Assembly: GCA_964597545.1 (NCBI GenBank)
Contig: CAZQXN010000001.1
Location: 5,655-69,654, forward strand
DNA: 64,000 nucleotides
Source of the DNA: an uncultured Planctomycetia bacterium
GTDB taxonomy: Bacteria > Omnitrophota > Gorgyraeia > 1-14-0-20-64-10
Reading direction: 5' to 3'
The translations under genes were made by a program, and so were the position numbers. A model generated the notes under the pieces. The model was not told the DNA's origin. It searched no databases and was given only the letters and a program-made list of their open reading frames with translations. Position 1 is the first letter of the stretch. Each line of letters starts with the position of its first letter. Below are positions 1,994 through 58,625 of the stretch, one piece after another.

Positions 1994-2019
1994 GCAGCCC
2001 ATCGGCTGCTTTTTCTTTT
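1994..2019. terminator. rho-independent terminator, likely bidirectional, between convergent HTH gene and peroxiredoxin gene
   Basis: GCAGCC-catc-GGCTGC hairpin followed by a TTTTTCTTTT run. Confidence 0.6.
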
Positions 2020-2617
2020 AGGGCACCTGGATCGTTTTCTGCCCCGGTTTCCAGCTGCAGGGGGTCAACCCCCCGGTCTGGAGGGCATCCAAGACCCTTA
2101 ACACCTCTTCTGGATTGCGCCCGACGCTTAAGTCGGTCACCATGGAAAAGCGGATGATGCCATCGGGATCCACCAGGAAGGTGGCGCGCTGTGCCACTCC
2201 CTCCTTGCGGTCGATGATCCCCAGGGCGGTTGAGAGTTCCCGCTTTAAATCCGCCAGCATCGGAAAGGGCAGTGTGGCAAGTTCCTCCTTCTGCTGCCGC
2301 CAGGCCAGATGCACAAACTCTGAGTCGGTGCTCCCGCCCAACACCTGAGCCCCTCGCTTGGAGAATTCAGGTGTGATCTTGCCGAAAGCCTCAATCTCTG
2401 TCGGGCAAACAAAGGTGAAGTCCTTCGGCCAGAAGAAGACCACCAGCCACTTGCCTTTGGTGGTATCGTTGCTGACCTCGACAAAGGCATCTTTAGCGCT
2501 GTTGGAGACAACCCCTTTAAGGCGAAACTCAGGAAACCGATCACCAACACTCAACATAGAATGAACCTCCTTGATATTGCGAGAGAGAAAAACGACGGGA
2601 TTGAAGGATAGACTCAA
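2018..2617 (-). CDS. peroxiredoxin (AhpC/TSA family)
   Basis: FTFVCPTE peroxidatic-cysteine motif and thioredoxin fold. A more likely start is the internal Met at MLSVGDRF, about 2560. Confidence 0.8.
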   Translation of the reverse strand: MSLSFNPVVFLSRNIKEVHSMLSVGDRFPEFRLKGVVSNSAKDAFVEVSNDTTKGKWLVVFFWPKDFTFVCPTEIEAFGKITPEFSKRGAQVLGGSTDSEFVHLAWRQQKEELATLPFPMLADLKRELSTALGIIDRKEGVAQRATFLVDPDGIIRFSMVTDLSVGRNPEEVLRVLDALQTGGLTPCSWKPGQKTIQVP

Positions 2618-2657
2618 TCCCGTCGATGTAACTGCTTGAAAACAAAAGAATTATGAC

Positions 2658-2998
2658 TAGCGGGGCCTGGATTCGAACCAGGGACCTTCAGGTTATGCGT
2701 ACCACTTCAGCTTTCGCTGCCTCGCCAAAGCTACCGGCAAGTTTGTGGTCTGGACTATCTCTTCGCCCCATGAGATCACATCAATCCCACGGGGTGCCCA
2801 TCGTTTAGTCTCTACACCTCTCCGCCAAAAACGAGATTGCTTCGTCCCGCTGCAAGCGGGCCTCGCAATGACAGGCGGATTTGGCTCGGGATTCCCAGTG
2901 AAGGGTTCCCCGAATTTGACAGGTGATCTTTCCCTGCATTGCTGCAGGGACGCCCATTGACTTGAGCCTGACGAGCTACCAGACTGCTCCACCCCGCA
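2658..2998 (-). tRNA. initiator-like tRNA-Met(CAU) gene interrupted by a group I intron (exons 2965-2998 and 2658-2697)
   Basis: The spliced sequence UGCGGGGUGGAGCAGUCUGGUAGCUCGUCAGGCU|CAUAACCUGAAGGUCCCUGGUUCGAAUCCAGGCCCCGCUA folds as a 74-nt cloverleaf, nearly identical to bacterial tRNA-fMet (A11:U24, 1:72 mismatch). The 5' exon ends in U33 and the intron ends in G. Confidence 0.75.
2698..2964 (-). ncRNA. group I self-splicing intron (267 nt) in the anticodon loop between U33 and C34
   Basis: Contains P-like GUCAAAUUCGGGGAACC, Q-like AAUCCGCCUG, R-like GUGUAGAGACUAAACG and S-like AAGAGAUAGUCC. It resembles Azoarcus/cyanobacterial tRNA introns. The ORFs predicted across it are spurious. Confidence 0.7.
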
Positions 2999-3043
2999 AT
3001 GGTAACTGTGTATTATAGACCTGACCTGGGGGCCATGCAAGGG

Positions 3044-3853
3044 TTACCCCGATAGCAGCCGGCAAACAGCGCAGTTCCAGCCCGCAGGCCCAACTCCTTC
3101 GGACCGCTCAAGGTGGCTTACATGGATCTTGTCCCAGGCGCCACCCGGCTTTTGAACCAACAGGGGCAGATCAACCGCCGCCAACATGGGTTCATCATTG
3201 CGGCTGTCTCCAATCCCTACGGTCCTGATCGCTCCGAACTGCTGCCTGAACAAACCGCTTAAGAGGGTAACGGCCTTGCCCTTGTCATTCGGGCCCATGG
3301 CATGGTGAAAGATGCCGCCGTGCACTCCCTGGAGCCCCTTGCGCTCCAGAGCCTCAAGAAAAGCCTTCTCTTGCTCTTGCGGAGAATCCAGCTTGACAGT
3401 TTCATCGTATTCCCGCGCCTTGGCCCGTTCGGCGTCGTCCAGGGCAAGGCCGGTTGCTCTGGCAACCTCTTCGGGAGACATCTCTCCAAATCCGGTAAAG
3501 GAGAGGGGGGTCTCAGCCTGAATCTCCTTTAAGCGCCTGCGGATTTCAGGGTAGGGTAAGCCGATTTCGATGACATCAAATCCCTCTAGGGAGCGCTGGA
3601 ACAGGTAAGGGGCCTGAAAATATCCTTTCGGAATGAAGATGGCGCCGCCATTCTCAGAGATAAAGGGGTGGTGAATTTGGAGCTTCTCCTGGATGACAAC
3701 CAGCTCCGCCCGCGTCTTGGCAGAGCAGAAGATAAGGGGCACTTGCCGCGAACGGACGAGCTCCAGCCCCTCCTGAGCCTGGGTGTGGGAATAGGTTTTG
3801 TACTCCAGGAGGGTGCCATCCAGATCGGTAAAGAGGATTAGCTGTGCGTCCAT
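3044..3853 (-). CDS. mpgP: mannosyl-3-phosphoglycerate phosphatase (HAD-IIB)
   Basis: Start taken at MDAQLILFTDLDGTLL, the HAD motif I. GIGDSRNDEPML is motif III. Sits in a cluster with mpgS. Confidence 0.75.
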   Translation of the reverse strand: MDAQLILFTDLDGTLLEYKTYSHTQAQEGLELVRSRQVPLIFCSAKTRAELVVIQEKLQIHHPFISENGGAIFIPKGYFQAPYLFQRSLEGFDVIEIGLPYPEIRRRLKEIQAETPLSFTGFGEMSPEEVARATGLALDDAERAKAREYDETVKLDSPQEQEKAFLEALERKGLQGVHGGIFHHAMGPNDKGKAVTLLSGLFRQQFGAIRTVGIGDSRNDEPMLAAVDLPLLVQKPGGAWDKIHVSHLERSEGVGPAGWNCAVCRLLSG

Positions 3854-5472
3854 TGGATAAGCAAGCAGACCAAGAGGATGAAACCAAAGTAGAGGAGGAT
3901 CAGCCGGTAGCGGCTGCCCCAGGCAATGCGCGAAACCGAGGCGCCGGTATCCCACTGCACCCAGGGAGCCCCAGCTTGAGCAAGCCTCGCCAGGGAACAG
4001 AGCGCGGCTACCCCAACGACTGTGATAAAACCGGTCACATTCCACCAAAGCCAGGAGATCTCGGTGAATTGCCAGAGACAAATGTTGACTGCAATTCCGG
4101 CGACCACCCCAAGCTTCACTGCCCCCGCATGGACCCAGCGCGTGGCAACCCCCAACAGAAAGGCCGCCAGGATCGGTCCATACAGCAGGGATCCCACCGC
4201 ATTGATAAGAACGAGGGTGGTTTGCCGGGTCGCTTCACCGATGGCTGCGAATTGCAGGGCTGCCGCAACACAGAAGAGGCCCCACAAACCGGTGCAGAGC
4301 TTGGAAACCTTAATGAGCTCCGCTTCCCCTGCGTGGGGTCTTAAATGCCTCTGATAGAAATCCTTGACCGTCACCGCACTTAAGGAATTTAACGCCGAAT
4401 CAAGGCTCGACATCAGTGCCGCCATGATCGCTACAAAGATCAGCCCGATCACCCCGTGAGGTAAGAATCCCAGGATAAAGAAGGGGAGCATCCGGTCTGG
4501 ATCGCGTCCCAGGGCTTCGGAGACGGCGGCGGTATCCATCTGCAGTGCTGAGGCAATCCTGGGCAGGGTTTCCGGCAAAGTAAAAACTGCTCCCACGAAA
4601 ACACCCACGAGGCAGTAGGCCAACACAACAGGAAAGCGGCCCAAGGCATTCACCATGAGGGATTGGCGGCTCCCATCCAGGGAGGGGACGCTGATCTCCC
4701 GCTGCATCTGGCTCTGATCGCAGCCATAGTAAGAGGCATAGAGAAAGATCCCGCCGATCAACATGGGCCAAAAACCGTACTTGCCCTCTGGGGTAAGGCC
4801 CCACTGGTGAAAATGAAGGATTTGGGCTCGCCCCGGCTCGAAAGCCGCCCAGGCCCCTTCCCAGCCGACAATCGAGAGGGCGGTCGCACCGCAGATCAGG
4901 ACCCCAACAACGATGATCCCCATCTGGAGCACATCGGTCAGGATCACCACCCTTAAGCCTCCTAAAATGTCATAGAGGATGGTGATTGCTCCAACGAGAA
5001 CAATGGCGGTTGCCGTCGGAATGGATAAAACCGTTGAGAGCACCAATCCCCCTGCCAGCACCGCCACCGCAGTGGCCAAACCCCGCCCCAGCAGAAAGAG
5101 GAAGCTCACCAGCGTTCGGGTGGAGCTGTCGAAGCGTTGCTCAAGATAGCTGTAGATGCTGACCCGATTCCTTTGATGCAGAGTAGGCAGCAAAACAGCC
5201 ATCACCAGCAAAAGCCCCAAGGGGACGCCAAACTCATAGCAGAGCCACTTGAGCCCCCCTCCGGGTTTCAGGGCCACAAAGGCAGGGGCCGAGATGAAAC
5301 TGATGGCAGACAGCTGCGTTGCCATCGTGGAAAGCCCGGACTGCCATCCAGGAGTTTGACGGCCGGCCAAATAATAATCTTGAAGGGTGCGCTGGGAAGT
5401 GCTCAGGCGTGCAGCAATCCAGAGGATGACAACGATGTAAAGCAGGAGGGCAGTCCAGTCGAGGAAGTTCAT
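3838..5472 (-). CDS. sodium:solute symporter (SSS family) permease
   Basis: 544 aa polytopic membrane protein with the SSS-family N-terminal pattern (YYLAGR, many TM helices). Located between mpgS and mpgP. Confidence 0.75.
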   Translation of the reverse strand: MNFLDWTALLLYIVVILWIAARLSTSQRTLQDYYLAGRQTPGWQSGLSTMATQLSAISFISAPAFVALKPGGGLKWLCYEFGVPLGLLLVMAVLLPTLHQRNRVSIYSYLEQRFDSSTRTLVSFLFLLGRGLATAVAVLAGGLVLSTVLSIPTATAIVLVGAITILYDILGGLRVVILTDVLQMGIIVVGVLICGATALSIVGWEGAWAAFEPGRAQILHFHQWGLTPEGKYGFWPMLIGGIFLYASYYGCDQSQMQREISVPSLDGSRQSLMVNALGRFPVVLAYCLVGVFVGAVFTLPETLPRIASALQMDTAAVSEALGRDPDRMLPFFILGFLPHGVIGLIFVAIMAALMSSLDSALNSLSAVTVKDFYQRHLRPHAGEAELIKVSKLCTGLWGLFCVAAALQFAAIGEATRQTTLVLINAVGSLLYGPILAAFLLGVATRWVHAGAVKLGVVAGIAVNICLWQFTEISWLWWNVTGFITVVGVAALCSLARLAQAGAPWVQWDTGASVSRIAWGSRYRLILLYFGFILLVCLLIQWTHS

Positions 5473-5499
5473 CCCGGAACCGCCAGAACGACCAGGGGG

Positions 5500-6688
5500 T
5501 TAAACCTTCCCCTCCTTAACCAACCTGGCATAGGGGGTAGGCTCAAGGTCCTTTAAGAACGCATCCAGGTTGATGGAGGACAGCGGCGGATAGCGGCGAG
5601 GCTGTGGGGGTTTTTGTCCGCGCCGCAGGAAGCGGAAGCGGACCATCTCGTCATACACCTCTTCCCGAACACTCTTGGGGCAAGCGGGGGAGTGGTAGAT
5701 CACCTGCATGGCAGCGTAGAGCATGCCGCCAACATGATCGTCATCCCCGGCCTCATGGAGGTGGGGGTTGCGAGATTCAATCTGGCTGACCTGAACCTTG
5801 TGCTTCATCACATCCGGATCCGGCCCCACTGAAAGCCCGCCGAACTTCTCAATGAGATTCATGATGTGATACGGCTCAATGGAGTAGCCTCCGGAGTAAT
5901 CCAAGCGCATGGCCAGATCCGTGGTCATGGCATGCTCGCCGGAGTTTCCGGTCTTGATGATCTCGGTCTCATAGCCGGTGTAGGCGCTGATCAAGCGGTT
6001 GAGGAGGCGGTTGGTGTGGCTGGAGGTCCGCCCCCACTTATGGAAAAAGATCTTGGACTCGGCAATCTTGGGCTTGCTGTTCCAAGAGATTCGAACCTTG
6101 GCATAGGGAGATTTGTTCATGATGAAGCCGGCGGCATACTCCCGGATGTACTCCTCCACCGCTCCCGGAAAGTAGTTGTCGGCATCGACAAAACCGACGT
6201 ACTTCTTGCCGGCAAGCTTGGCCAACAGCATCCCGATCAGCATCCCCTCTCCCTTACCGTCAAAAATCCGCCCCTCTTGATCCAAGATCTTCTGGTAGCC
6301 AACCATCTCAAAGGCCTTGGCCAAGATCGGATCCTTCTGGTGGATGATGAGGGCATGCTTGTTGACGAAGAGGCAGAAGTCCCTGAGGGCATCCTTCTCC
6401 ATGCTGAAGCGGTCTACCGGAGTGCGGGGGCTGTTGGAGACGATGATGATGAGACACGGATGCGGAATTCCGGTTAAGACCCCCTCGACCAGCTTCAAGC
6501 GCTCAGAGCGGACCGGGACCACAATCGCCATCTCCCGCATCACTTCATGGAGGGCTTCGTAGGGAATCTGCTGAATGGCAGAGCCCTTTAAGGGGGTCTG
6601 CTCGCGCCTGAGGCCCGAATCAAGCTCAAGCACCTTCTGGAGCCCTCCGAAGCGGATCGCCCCAAACCGCTCAACCTCTCTGGGAAGT

Positions 6689-6699
<11 letters not shown>
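5500..6699 (-). CDS. mpgS: mannosyl-3-phosphoglycerate synthase (GT55)
   Basis: 399 aa with GFVDADNYFPGAVEEYIREYAAGF and end-to-end similarity to Thermus/Pyrococcus MpgS. Confidence 0.85.
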
Positions 6700-8891
<2,192 letters not shown>

Positions 8892-49026: not shown

Positions 49027-49100
49027 AAGCCGCCGAGAGGAATCGAACCTCCGACCCGTCGCTTACGAAGCGACTGCTCTACCAAACTGAGCTACGGCGG
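49027..49100 (-). tRNA. tRNA-Thr(CGU), intact, element-borne
   Basis: GCCGCCGUAGCUCAGUUUGGUAGAGCAGUCGCUUCGUAAGCGACGGGUCGGAGGUUCGAUUCCUCUCGGCGGCU forms a perfect 74-nt cloverleaf. Sequence differs from the split host copy in the anticodon and T stems. Lies 11 bp downstream of int. Confidence 0.8.
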
Positions 49101-49111
49101 CGTAAGGCTGA

Positions 49112-58422: not shown

Positions 58423-58518
58423 GACACCAAAAAGGCCCCGAGGCATCAGCCAAGGGACCTTCACAACCTGTTGCAATACTTCAAGAAAGAATGACGCCGC
58501 TACTCAAAAATCCCTCGC

Positions 58519-58567
58519 CGACCCGCGCATTACGAATGCGCTGCTCTACCAACTGAGCTACGCCGGC
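58519..58567 (-). pseudogene. 5' fragment of tRNA-Thr(CGU) (acceptor stem through variable loop), includes right att core 58519-58536
   Basis: Revcomp GCCGGCGUAGCUCAGUUGGUAGAGCAGCGCAUUCGUAAUGCGCGGGUCG. The sequence that follows is not tRNA-like. Confidence 0.7.
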
Positions 58568-58577
58568 TTGGAAAACC

Positions 58578-58625
58578 GGTACCGGGTACAATGTACCCGG
58601 TACCGCAATGCGGGTACCGCAATGG
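58578..58625. repeat. GGTACCGGGTACA/TGTACCCGGTACC inverted-repeat motif (copy C) plus GCAATG-CGGGTACC-GCAATG
   Basis: Same 13-bp arms occur at 40598-40610/40633-40645, 9300-9312 (plus a degenerate arm) and 63131-63144. Confidence 0.6.

What the first reader, a model, noticed from the sequence alone, without database searches (positions are those of the whole stretch)
2658..2998. Initiator-like tRNA-Met(CAU) gene split by a 267-nt group I intron in the anticodon loop
Read on the minus strand, the locus has a complete tRNA 5' half (acceptor, D-arm, 5' anticodon stem ending CU) and a complete 3' half (CAUAA, 3' anticodon stem, T-arm, acceptor). They are separated by 267 nt that carry group-I P, Q, R and S consensus-like blocks: GUCAAAUUCGGGGAACC, AAUCCGCCUG, GUAGAGACUAAACG, AAGAGAUAGUCC. 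The 5' exon ends in U and the intron ends in G, as group I splicing requires. The spliced product is nearly identical to bacterial tRNA-fMet (A11:U24, 1-72 mismatch). tRNA group I introns are rare in bacteria and are mainly known from cyanobacterial and a few proteobacterial tRNA genes. The surrounding gene content does not look cyanobacterial. The two ORFs predicted across this region are artefacts.
Basis: partly seen in the sequence, partly recalled or inferred. Interest (0 to 1): 0.75.

Follow-up and report, generated by a model that had tools for sequence, protein, structure and literature searches.

The report
Self-splicing intron in initiator tRNA gene
The gene for the tRNA that starts protein synthesis is interrupted here by a 267-base self-splicing (group I) RNA intron; this is a real but already well-documented kind of bacterial tRNA intron, seen here in what looks like a planctomycete.

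Summary
On the minus strand, 2998..2658 reads as a 34-nt tRNA 5' half, a 267-nt insert, then a 40-nt 3' half. Joining the halves gives a 74-nt tRNA-Met(CAU) with initiator marks: U1·U72 mismatch, A11:U24, 85% identity to enterobacterial tRNA-fMet. The insert is a group I intron. Rfam Intron_gpI scores 49.6 bits (curated cut-off 50; E 1e-9 to 1e-11). The free-energy fold and a 13-sequence alignment both support P1-P9: 88% of cells paired, 32 pairs with compensatory changes, and U·G at the 5' splice site and a terminal G in 13/13. It sits at anticodon-loop position 33/34. That is the classical "fMet.2Ug" IC3 class, first found in cyanobacteria. Published surveys already list this class in Bacteroidota, Desulfobacterota, Nitrospirota and Omnitrophota. 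I found homologues in Planctomycetota and Omnitrophota MAGs and in Desulfonema magnum. Gene order (enolase upstream of tRNA-fMet) suggests the window is planctomycete. Intron-less counterparts exist in the same gene order. There is no homing endonuclease, and the ORFs across the locus are artefacts. Its "Q" block is mis-assigned and its view of rarity is outdated. This is a new member of a known kind, of low to moderate interest.

The parts
3012..3017 (-). Possible -10 promoter box TATAAT. A weak -35-like TTGCAT lies at 3040..3035 (17-nt spacer). The -10 box ends 13 nt upstream of the tRNA 5' end.
   Evidence: Read directly from the sequence. The consensus scan does NOT call it, because the -35 matches only 3 of 6. 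Suggestive only.
2965..2998 (-). tRNA-fMet 5' exon (positions 1-33): acceptor 5' strand, D arm, 5' anticodon stem and C32-U33. It ends in U(-1) at 2965.
   Evidence: U(-1) is invariant in 13/13 homologues.
2698..2964 (-). Group I (IC3-type) intron, 267 nt, with no ORF for a homing endonuclease. The terminal G (omega-G) is at 2698.
   Evidence: Rfam RF00028 scores 49.6 bits, E 1.8e-11, over model positions 1-253. Fold z = -3.98. Covariation is shown. The intron is homologous to introns labelled IC3 in PMC13011429 Table S5.
2952..2967 (-). P1: exon/intron GCU^CA (2967..2963) pairs with the internal guide UGGGC (2956..2952). U2965·G2954 is the splice-site wobble. The AUG of the guide (2957..2955) can pair with the 3' exon CAU (P10).
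   Evidence: (helix 1 is 96.9% paired; U·G in 13/13).
2932..2949 (-). P2 hairpin CCCUGCA-GCAA-UGCAGGG with a GNRA tetraloop.
   Evidence: The MFE fold recovers it. All 13 homologues have a GNRA-capped hairpin here by eye. The MAFFT columns are not in structural register, so the count (50%) understates it.
2797..2923 (-). P3: CCUGUC (2923..2918) pairs with GAUGGG (2802..2797). It encloses P4-P6 and the 5' strand of P7.
   Evidence: helix 3: 100% paired, with 2 pairs showing compensatory changes.
2886..2913 (-). P4 (UCGGGG 2913..2908 / UCCCGA 2891..2886) and a minimal P5 (CCC 2905..2903 / GGG 2896..2894).
   Evidence: helix 4: 98.3% paired, with 3 pairs showing compensatory changes. Also.
2816..2885 (-). 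P6 (GCC/GGU), P6a (UCCGCC 2879..2874 / GGCGGA 2826..2821) and a distal hairpin at 2872..2835 (GUCAUUGCGAGG...CGAAGCAAUC).
   Evidence: helices 5 and 6 (97% and 87% paired; all 6 P6a pairs covary). The distal hairpin is shared only with L009.
2753..2810 (-). P7 pseudoknot: GACUA (2810..2806) pairs with UAGUC (2757..2753). By homology this is the guanosine-binding helix. It spans P3' and P8.
   Evidence: helix 7: 100% paired, 4 pairs invariant and 1 compensatory. The guanosine-binding role is inferred from established group I knowledge.
2766..2794 (-). P8 hairpin CCCCGUGGGA / UCUCAUGGGG.
   Evidence: helix 8: outer pairs are conserved or compensatory; inner pairs are not alignable.
2701..2749 (-). 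P9 three-way domain: P9 ACCAC/GUGGU, P9a CUUGCC/GGCGAG, P9b CAGC-GAAA-GCUG.
   Evidence: helices 9, 10 and 12 (98.5%, 89.7% and 100% paired, with compensatory changes).
2658..2697 (-). tRNA-fMet 3' exon: anticodon CAU, A37-A38, 3' anticodon stem, variable loop, T arm, acceptor 3' strand and discriminator A73. CCA is not encoded.
2593..2625 (-). Intrinsic-terminator-like hairpin (13 pairs) followed by UUUUUCUCUC, 33 nt downstream of the tRNA.

Best explanation
This is a functional initiator tRNA-Met(CAU) gene interrupted between anticodon-loop positions 33 and 34 by a 267-nt IC3-type group I intron. This is the classical 'fMet.2Ug' or 'fMet 33/34' class.

Proposed mechanism. Every step is inferred, either from the sequence or from established group I chemistry; none was observed here.
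1. The gene is transcribed as a roughly 340-nt precursor. It may have its own promoter (a possible one is seen). An intrinsic-terminator-like hairpin follows the gene.
2. The intron folds into the P1-P9 architecture. P1 pairs the exon end GCU with the internal guide UGGGC. This presents U(-1)·G as the 5' splice site.
3. An external guanosine bound in P7 attacks after U2965.
4. The guide then holds the 3' exon (P10: CAU/AUG). The terminal G2698 takes the guanosine site.
5. The freed 3'-OH of U33 attacks after G2698 and joins the exons into a 74-nt tRNA.
6. RNase P, 3' trimming and CCA addition complete the tRNA.

The intron carries no endonuclease gene. It is therefore most likely inherited vertically and sometimes lost, rather than actively homing. 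The host is most likely a member of Planctomycetota.
For: - Exact exon and intron anatomy.
- ARAGORN finds the split gene when introns are allowed. The spliced product is called tRNA-Met(cat).
- The spliced tRNA is 63/74 identical to uninterrupted enterobacterial tRNA-fMet. Most of the differences fall at paired stem positions (29:41, T stem).
- Rfam Intron_gpI matches the full model at 49.6 bits, with E 1.8e-11 and 1.3e-9.
- The MFE fold independently returns P2, P3, P4, P5, P6, P6a, P8, P9, P9a and P9b, with z = -3.98 and 0/200 shuffles as stable.
- Covariation across 13 homologous fMet introns: 88.3% of cells paired against 28-47% for slid controls. 32 pairs have compensatory changes (0/500 shuffles reach this). 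P3, P7 and P9b are 100% paired. U(-1), its G partner and omega-G are invariant.
- The same insertion site and clear sequence homology link it to introns published as fMet(CAT) 33/34, IC3. These come from Cyanobacteriota including Gloeobacter, Bacteroidota, Nitrospirota, Omnitrophota and Desulfonema magnum.
- Seven genome loci carry homologous interrupted tRNA-fMet genes: 4 Planctomycetota MAGs, 2 Omnitrophota MAGs and Desulfonema magnum.
- The enolase-purN-MFS gene order is shared with the Planctomycetia MAG L009 at 64-75% amino-acid identity.
- A terminator-like hairpin follows the gene.
- No Pfam match for any ORF over the locus.
Against: - The Rfam score is 0.4 bits below the curated cut-off, so a default annotation run does not report the intron.
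- No expression or splicing data exist for this locus.
- The promoter scan calls no sigma-70 site.
- Only 2 of the 3 canonical initiator G-C pairs are present in the anticodon stem (A29:U41). The same variant occurs in uninterrupted counterparts.
- P5 is unusually short (3 bp), so folding or activity may depend on the extended P6 or on a protein.
- Only 64 kb of the genome is visible, so a second, uninterrupted initiator gene cannot be excluded.
- The host assignment rests on synteny and similarity to MAGs, not on a marker-gene phylogeny.
Confidence: 0.88

Rival explanations
1. Decaying or inactive copy. The intron has lost catalytic competence, so the locus is a tRNA pseudogene. Initiation would then rely on another, uninterrupted tRNA-fMet gene elsewhere in the genome.
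For: - Only 64 kb is visible, so a second copy cannot be ruled out (searches cover this window only).
- P5 is minimal.
- P6 holds an extra hairpin that also occurs outside introns.
- The Rfam score is just under the cut-off.
Against: - The window keeps every position that is invariant across the 13 aligned introns, including U(-1), the G of the wobble, P7 and omega-G. The window is itself one of those 13.
- Every helix of the window's model (P1-P9b) is fully made of Watson-Crick or G·U pairs.
- Both exons retain a perfect cloverleaf.
- The minimal P5 is shared with L009, L002 and L004, so it is a lineage feature rather than damage.
- A terminator-like hairpin and a perfect -10 box flank the gene.
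Confidence: 0.07
2. The intron is a true group I intron, but splicing in the cell needs a protein helper such as a tRNA synthetase-like or chaperone factor. It would not be fully autonomous.
For: - P5 is short and there is no obvious 11-nt tetraloop receptor. The conserved GAAA loop of P9b and the GNRA loop of P2 may therefore lack strong docking sites. This rests on reading and on general group I knowledge.
Against: - Classical tRNA IC3 introns self-splice in vitro. This covers Azoarcus tRNA-Ile and cyanobacterial tRNA-Leu and tRNA-fMet (established literature, from my own knowledge). Patescibacterial tRNA introns were also shown to self-splice (PMC13011429 abstract).
- No candidate helper gene lies next to the locus.
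Confidence: 0.1
3. The spliced tRNA is not the initiator. It would instead be an elongator tRNA-Met, or a tRNA-Ile2 whose CAU is modified to lysidine.
For: - The anticodon CAU is shared by all three tRNA types.
- The tFind software labelled several homologous genes 'Ile2' or 'Met' (Table S5 of PMC13011429).
- Only 2 of the 3 initiator G-C pairs are present.
Against: - The 1:72 mismatch, A11:U24 and G30:C40/G31:C39 are initiator marks (established knowledge).
- The tRNA is 85% identical to enterobacterial tRNA-fMet.
- The authors of PMC13011429 assign the homologues to fMet by best intron-less match.
- An elongator tRNA-Met in L075 shares only 47/74 positions.
Confidence: 0.03

Closest known systems
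Cyanobacterial tRNA-fMet group I intron (class 'fMet.2Ug' of Williams 2020; 'fMet (CAT) 33/34, IC3' of PMC13011429), e.g. Gloeobacter violaceus GCF_000011385.1
   Same: - Same host gene and same insertion site (after U33). U(-1) and omega-G are both present.
- Same helix order.
- Conserved blocks are shared: AUGGGC (guide), CCUGYCAAAUUCGGGGAAGCC, GGUAAUCCCGAGCCAAGC, GAAGGUGUAGAGACU, AGUCCAGACC(A/C)CAAAC and GCAGCGRAAGCUGUAGUGGUAMG|CAUAACC.
- 64-70% identity over 171 gap-free columns.
- Similar length (244-267 nt).
   Different: - The host is not a cyanobacterium.
- The last P7 pair is A-U here and G-C or U-A in the cyanobacterial introns.
- P5 is shorter.
- There is no P1 extension hairpin.
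- P6 carries an extra distal hairpin.
- Some cyanobacterial copies carry an endonuclease ORF (654-655-nt introns). This one does not.
Interrupted tRNA-fMet genes of Omnitrophota and Planctomycetota MAGs (L002, L004, L009, L003, L014, L012) and Desulfonema magnum (L010 = GCF_017377395.1 in PMC13011429 Table S5)
   Same: - These are the nearest relatives: 78% identity (L002, L004) and 72.5% (L009) over gap-free columns.
- L009 shares the short P5 and the GUCAUUGCGAG...GAAGCAAUC hairpin in P6.
- The enolase gene lies upstream of the tRNA in the six MAG loci, not in Desulfonema magnum L010.
   Different: - In the window, a 4-kb mannosylglycerate gene block lies between enolase and the tRNA.
- The peripheral helices (P1 extension, P2, P6, P8, P9a) differ in length and sequence.
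Azoarcus sp. BH72 pre-tRNA-Ile(CAU) intron, the structural model of IC3 introns
   Same: - Same subgroup and the same core motifs, such as GUCAAAUUCGG, CCGAGCCAA, GUGUAGAGACUA and AUAGUCCAG. The Azoarcus sequence is recalled from memory and was not retrieved here.
- It is also a tRNA with a CAU anticodon and GNRA-capped P2 and P9 hairpins.
   Different: - Different tRNA (Ile2) and different insertion site: class Ile2.5Ug, after position 36.
- The Azoarcus intron is shorter (about 205 nt).
- It has a long P5 with a tetraloop receptor.
- Its P9 domain is simpler.

Membership tests
Group I intron (Rfam RF00028 Intron_gpI) | Covariance-model score at or above the curated gathering score | tested here: inconclusive
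   49.6 bits against a cut-off of 50 in Rfam 15. The match is absent from the gathering run. It is present with E 1.8e-11 and 1.3e-9 over the full model 1-253. Williams 2020 cites an earlier cut-off of 40 bits.
Group I intron | P1 helix presenting a U·G wobble at the 5' splice site, formed with an internal guide sequence | tested here: met
   GCU^CA pairs with UGGGC, and U2965·G2954 is the wobble. U·G is present in 13/13 homologues and the helix is 96.9% paired.
Group I intron | Terminal guanosine (omega-G) at the 3' splice site, and P10 pairing of the guide with the 3' exon | tested here: met
   G2698 is invariant in 13/13. The 3' exon CAU can pair with the AUG of the guide (read from the sequence).
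Group I intron | Conserved core with P3-P8 and P4-P6 domains and the P3/P7 pseudoknot | tested here: met
   P3, P4, P5, P6, P7 and P8 are all present. P3 and P7 are 100% paired with compensatory changes. Overall, 32 pairs covary and 0/500 shuffles reach this. The MFE fold returns the nested helices.
Group I intron | Guanosine-dependent self-splicing activity | not testable with these tools
   This needs an in vitro transcript with GTP and Mg2+, or RNA from the organism.
Subgroup IC3 tRNA introns, class fMet 33/34 (fMet.2Ug) | Insertion between positions 33 and 34 of an initiator tRNA, with U(-1) and omega-G | tested here: met
   The junctions read CU|c...g|CAUAA. This is the same site as in the published fMet (CAT) 33/34 rows.
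Subgroup IC3 tRNA introns, class fMet 33/34 (fMet.2Ug) | Sequence homology to recognised members of the class | tested here: met
   The intron aligns along its whole length with 8 published fMet 33/34 IC3 introns: 5 in alignment A1, plus 3 cyanobacterial ones in the 22-sequence alignment (one further published row, Desulfonema, is the same sequence as L010). It has 60-78% identity to the fMet introns, against 55-57% to the cyanobacterial Arg and Leu introns. A formal subgroup classifier was not run.
Bacterial initiator tRNA (tRNA-fMet) | CAU anticodon and a cloverleaf after exon ligation | tested here: met
   ARAGORN calls tRNA-Met(cat) over 1-74 on the spliced sequence.
Bacterial initiator tRNA (tRNA-fMet) | No Watson-Crick pair at 1:72 | tested here: met
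   U1 (2998) faces U72 (2659). The same U1·U72 occurs in L002, L004, L009, L010 and the intron-less L045.
Bacterial initiator tRNA (tRNA-fMet) | Purine11:pyrimidine24 (A11:U24) in the D stem | tested here: met
   A11:U24, read.
Bacterial initiator tRNA (tRNA-fMet) | Three consecutive G-C pairs (29-31:39-41) in the anticodon stem | tested here: not met
   The pairs are A29:U41, G30:C40 and G31:C39, so two of three. At least 120 uninterrupted metagenomic tRNA genes carry the same anticodon-arm sequence. L045, L075a and the Planctomycetota homologues have A29:U41 too, so it is a lineage variant. From my own knowledge, variants with 2 G-C pairs are known in some bacteria.

The most novel reading that the evidence does not exclude
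This may be the only initiator tRNA gene of a planctomycete. Every round of translation initiation would then depend on a guanosine-requiring ribozyme step.

The Planctomycetota/Omnitrophota introns would form an old, vertically inherited lineage tied to the enolase-tRNA-fMet locus, with occasional loss (intron-less L045 and L075). They would also have picked up a small hairpin repeat in P6.

If splicing rate responds to guanosine nucleotide levels, the intron could act as a built-in throttle on initiation.
Probability: 0.1. Interest if true: 0.5.

Novelty: new member of a known kind. Interest (0 to 1): 0.2.

Why it matters
The main value is practical. Default tRNA finders and the Rfam gathering run both miss the gene. 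An automatic annotation of this genome would therefore appear to lack an initiator tRNA and would place spurious ORFs over the locus.

It also adds a planctomycete-type member to a class of tRNA-fMet introns that recent surveys have shown to be far more widespread than the older cyanobacteria-centred view. It gives a matched set of intron-containing and intron-less loci in the same gene order. That set could be used to study intron gain and loss.

It does not reveal a new mechanism.

Tried and rejected
- **Default tRNA and Rfam runs.** ARAGORN and the Rfam gathering run report nothing at the locus. The permissive run was needed.
- **Weak tRNA hit.** Rfam scores 24.6 bits for tRNA at 2658-2726. 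This is just the real T arm and acceptor joined to intron sequence, so I rejected it as a separate gene.
- **ARAGORN with introns.** It places the intron at the archaeal/eukaryotic 37/38 site and calls tRNA-Leu(caa). I rejected this because that placement gives neither U(-1) nor a terminal G. The problem is described in 10.1101/2020.01.27.920355.
- **Tandem-copy false positives.** Seven of the 14 genome hits were tandem uninterrupted tRNA-fMet copies (Enterobacteriaceae, Acinetobacter, Arcticibacter), not introns.
- **Cyanobacterial members missed by the pattern.** The search pattern required GACTA in P7, so it missed them. I took those sequences from the published table instead.
- **Source contig.** Exact-protein look-ups for the enolase and the MPG synthase found nothing.
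- **P9 model.** My first hand model paired AGCUUU with GAAAGCU. I dropped it in favour of P9a plus P9b after seeing the alignment.
- **P6 hairpin as a repeat.** I tested whether the P6 hairpin is a repeat within the window. It has no other copy there.
- **Promoter.** The promoter scan was negative.
- **Planctomycetota in the published survey.** I could not check whether Planctomycetota rows exist in PMC13011429 Table S5, because the stored file is cut after the first Patescibacteria row.

Full report
**1. What is in the sequence**

Read on the minus strand, 2998..2965 is UGCGGGGUGGAGCAGUCUGGUAGCUCGUCAGGCU. This is the acceptor 5' strand, D arm, 5' anticodon stem and C32-U33 of a tRNA. After 267 nt (2964..2698; CAAGUC...GGUACG), 2697..2658 reads CAUAACCUGAAGGUCCCUGGUUCGAAUCCAGGCCCCGCUA.

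Default ARAGORN and the Rfam gathering run do not see the gene. ARAGORN with introns allowed finds a split tRNA at c[2657,2999] with a 267-nt intron. It puts the intron at the 37/38 site and mis-names the gene Leu(caa), a known limitation (10.1101/2020.01.27.920355). Joining the exons at U|...G| gives a 74-nt RNA that ARAGORN calls tRNA-Met(cat) over its whole length.

The spliced tRNA is 63/74 identical to the uninterrupted enterobacterial tRNA-fMet present in L001. Most of the differences fall at paired stem positions (29:41, T stem). It has a U1·U72 mismatch and A11:U24. It has two of the three canonical initiator G-C pairs (A29:U41, G30:C40, G31:C39).

**2. The insert is a group I intron**

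A permissive Rfam scan gives Intron_gpI (RF00028) at 2974..2735 on the minus strand, covering model positions 1-253. The score is 49.6 bits against a cut-off of 50. E is 1.8e-11 for the region and 1.3e-9 for the whole window.

I derived a hand model with these helices:
- P1: GCU^CA/UGGGC
- P2: capped by GCAA
- P3: CCUGUC/GAUGGG
- P4: UCGGGG/UCCCGA
- P5: a 3-bp helix
- P6 and P6a
- P7: GACUA/UAGUC
- P8
- A three-way P9 domain, with P9b capped by GAAA

All coordinates were checked against the sequence. Thermodynamic folding of the intron alone returns all the nested helices of this model. The energy is -109.4 kcal/mol, z = -3.98, and 0/200 shuffles fold as well. The guide sequence can pair with the exon end, giving a U2965·G2954 wobble. 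It can also pair with the first three bases of the 3' exon (P10).

**3. Relatives and covariation**

I scanned one genome per GTDB species for the two tRNA-fMet exon ends separated by 230-290 nt with GACTA between them. This gave 14 loci.
- Seven are tandem uninterrupted tRNA-fMet genes and were discarded.
- Seven are true homologues: four Planctomycetota MAGs (L003, L009, L012, L014), two Omnitrophota MAGs (L002, L004) and Desulfonema magnum (L010).

I added five published fMet 33/34 introns (two Nitrospirota, one Omnitrophota, two Bacteroidota) from Table S5 of PMC13011429. This gave the 13-sequence alignment A1.

On that alignment, my structure gives these counts:
- 88.3% of cells are paired, against 28-47% when the 3' partners are slid by 1-3 columns.
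- 32 pairs have changes on both sides (0/500 shuffles reach this).
- The covariation score is 0.281, against 0.144 in shuffles.
- P3, P7 and P9b are paired in 100% of cells. P4/P5, P6 and P9 are paired in 97-98%.
- U(-1), its G partner and the terminal G are invariant.

P2 and the inner part of P8 score poorly only because MAFFT does not align these variable hairpins in register. Every sequence has a GNRA-capped P2 by eye.

**4. What it is called in the literature**

Williams (10.1101/2020.01.27.920355) lists four classical bacterial tRNA intron classes, all IC3. One is fMet.2Ug: the intron follows the second anticodon-loop base, with U(-1) and omega-G. That is exactly the arrangement here. 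That survey found 5,292 interrupted tRNA genes in about 80,000 genomes.

Nakagawa et al. (PMC13011429) found 333 tRNA group I introns in 18 phyla among 4,934 complete genomes. They name 33/34 in tRNA-fMet as a common site. Their Table S5 lists fMet (CAT) 33/34 IC3 introns in these groups:
- Bacteroidota
- Cyanobacteriota, including Gloeobacter
- Desulfobacterota (Desulfonema magnum, identical to my L010)
- Nitrospirota
- Omnitrophota

The stored copy of the table is cut before any Planctomycetota rows, so I cannot say whether that phylum is already listed.

The cyanobacterial fMet introns align with the window intron along its whole length and share all core blocks and the 3' terminal domain. 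Identity is 64-70% over 171 gap-free columns. A crude neighbour-joining tree puts the window with the Omnitrophota/Planctomycetia introns L002, L004 and L009, at 72-78% identity.

**5. Host and context**

The neighbouring genes are as follows (Pfam):
- A peroxiredoxin (2018..2557).
- A HAD phosphatase.
- A sodium:solute symporter.
- Mannosyl-3-phosphoglycerate synthase (the phosphatase, the symporter and this synthase together span 3044..6699).
- Enolase (6946..8247).

In L002, L003, L004, L009, L012 and L014, enolase lies directly upstream of the interrupted tRNA-fMet. L009 (an uncultured Planctomycetia MAG) also shares the enolase-purN-MFS order with the window at 64-75% amino-acid identity. 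The window is therefore most likely from Planctomycetota. It has a 4-kb mannosylglycerate block inserted between enolase and the tRNA. This host assignment is an inference from synteny, not from a marker phylogeny.

Two of these, L045 and L075, carry an uninterrupted tRNA-Met(cat) downstream of enolase. The L045 tRNA has the same U1·U72 and A29:U41 and is 65/74 identical to the window's spliced tRNA. Intron-containing and intron-less versions therefore exist in the same gene order. This fits vertical descent with occasional loss or gain. It also fits the absence of a homing endonuclease in this 267-nt intron.

**6. Expression signals**

A 13-pair hairpin followed by a U-run lies 33 nt downstream of the tRNA (2625..2593). 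A perfect TATAAT lies at 3017..3012, with a weak TTGCAT 17 nt upstream. The scan's criteria do not call this a promoter. The four ORFs that overlap the locus (115, 71, 51 and 50 aa) are best treated as artefacts. The three scanned have no Pfam match. They lie over an RNA whose conservation pattern is base-pairing, not coding.

**7. Mechanism**

Inferred from the sequence:
- P1 sets the 5' splice site.
- The terminal G and P10 set the 3' splice site.
- The core helices are intact.

Inferred from established group I chemistry:
- The two guanosine-dependent transesterifications.
- Later RNase P processing and CCA addition (CCA is not encoded here).

Not testable here:
- Actual splicing.
- Whether this is the only initiator gene.

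**8. Verdict**

Two corrections apply. The premise of rarity is outdated.

This is a new member, possibly from a phylum not yet highlighted, of a long-known and now widely catalogued intron class. Its interest is mainly for annotation.

Noticed in passing
window 58516-58567 (-), with palindromes at 58575-58620: This is the 5' part of a tRNA-Thr(CGU)-like gene: acceptor 5' strand, D arm, anticodon arm and variable loop. It breaks off in the T stem. Rfam scores it 30.5 bits as tRNA, but ARAGORN does not call it. It differs from the intact tRNA-Thr(CGU) at 49028-49101. No matching 3' half is found in the window. It may be a remnant of an integration or deletion event.
   Followed up: partly
window 3044-6699 (-): A mannosylglycerate (compatible-solute) block sits between enolase and tRNA-fMet. 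It comprises a HAD phosphatase, a sodium:solute symporter and mannosyl-3-phosphoglycerate synthase. In the related Planctomycetota and Omnitrophota loci, enolase is directly next to the tRNA, so the block looks like an insertion. The 345-aa phosphatase ORF overlaps the symporter's end. Its real start is probably near 3853.
   Followed up: partly
window 2835-2872 (-); L009 1806-1833; L012 1932-1971: The distal hairpin of P6 (GUCAUUGCGAGG...CGAAGCAAUC) is shared only with L009. The same flanking motif around a different hairpin lies outside the intron, about 60 nt upstream of the tRNA, in L012. This suggests a small hairpin repeat element that can settle in a peripheral intron loop. No other copy occurs in the window.
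   Followed up: partly
L002, L003, L004, L009, L012, L014, L045, L075: The gene order enolase then tRNA-fMet, on the same strand, is conserved across Planctomycetota and Omnitrophota loci. It holds whether or not the tRNA carries the intron.
   Followed up: partly
L006, L011, L013 (Acinetobacter): Between two intact tRNA-fMet copies lies a degenerate tRNA-fMet-like sequence (GTCGGGCTCAAC...GAAGGT.GTTGG.TCAA...CCGCTACCA). It appears to be a decayed third copy.
   Followed up: no
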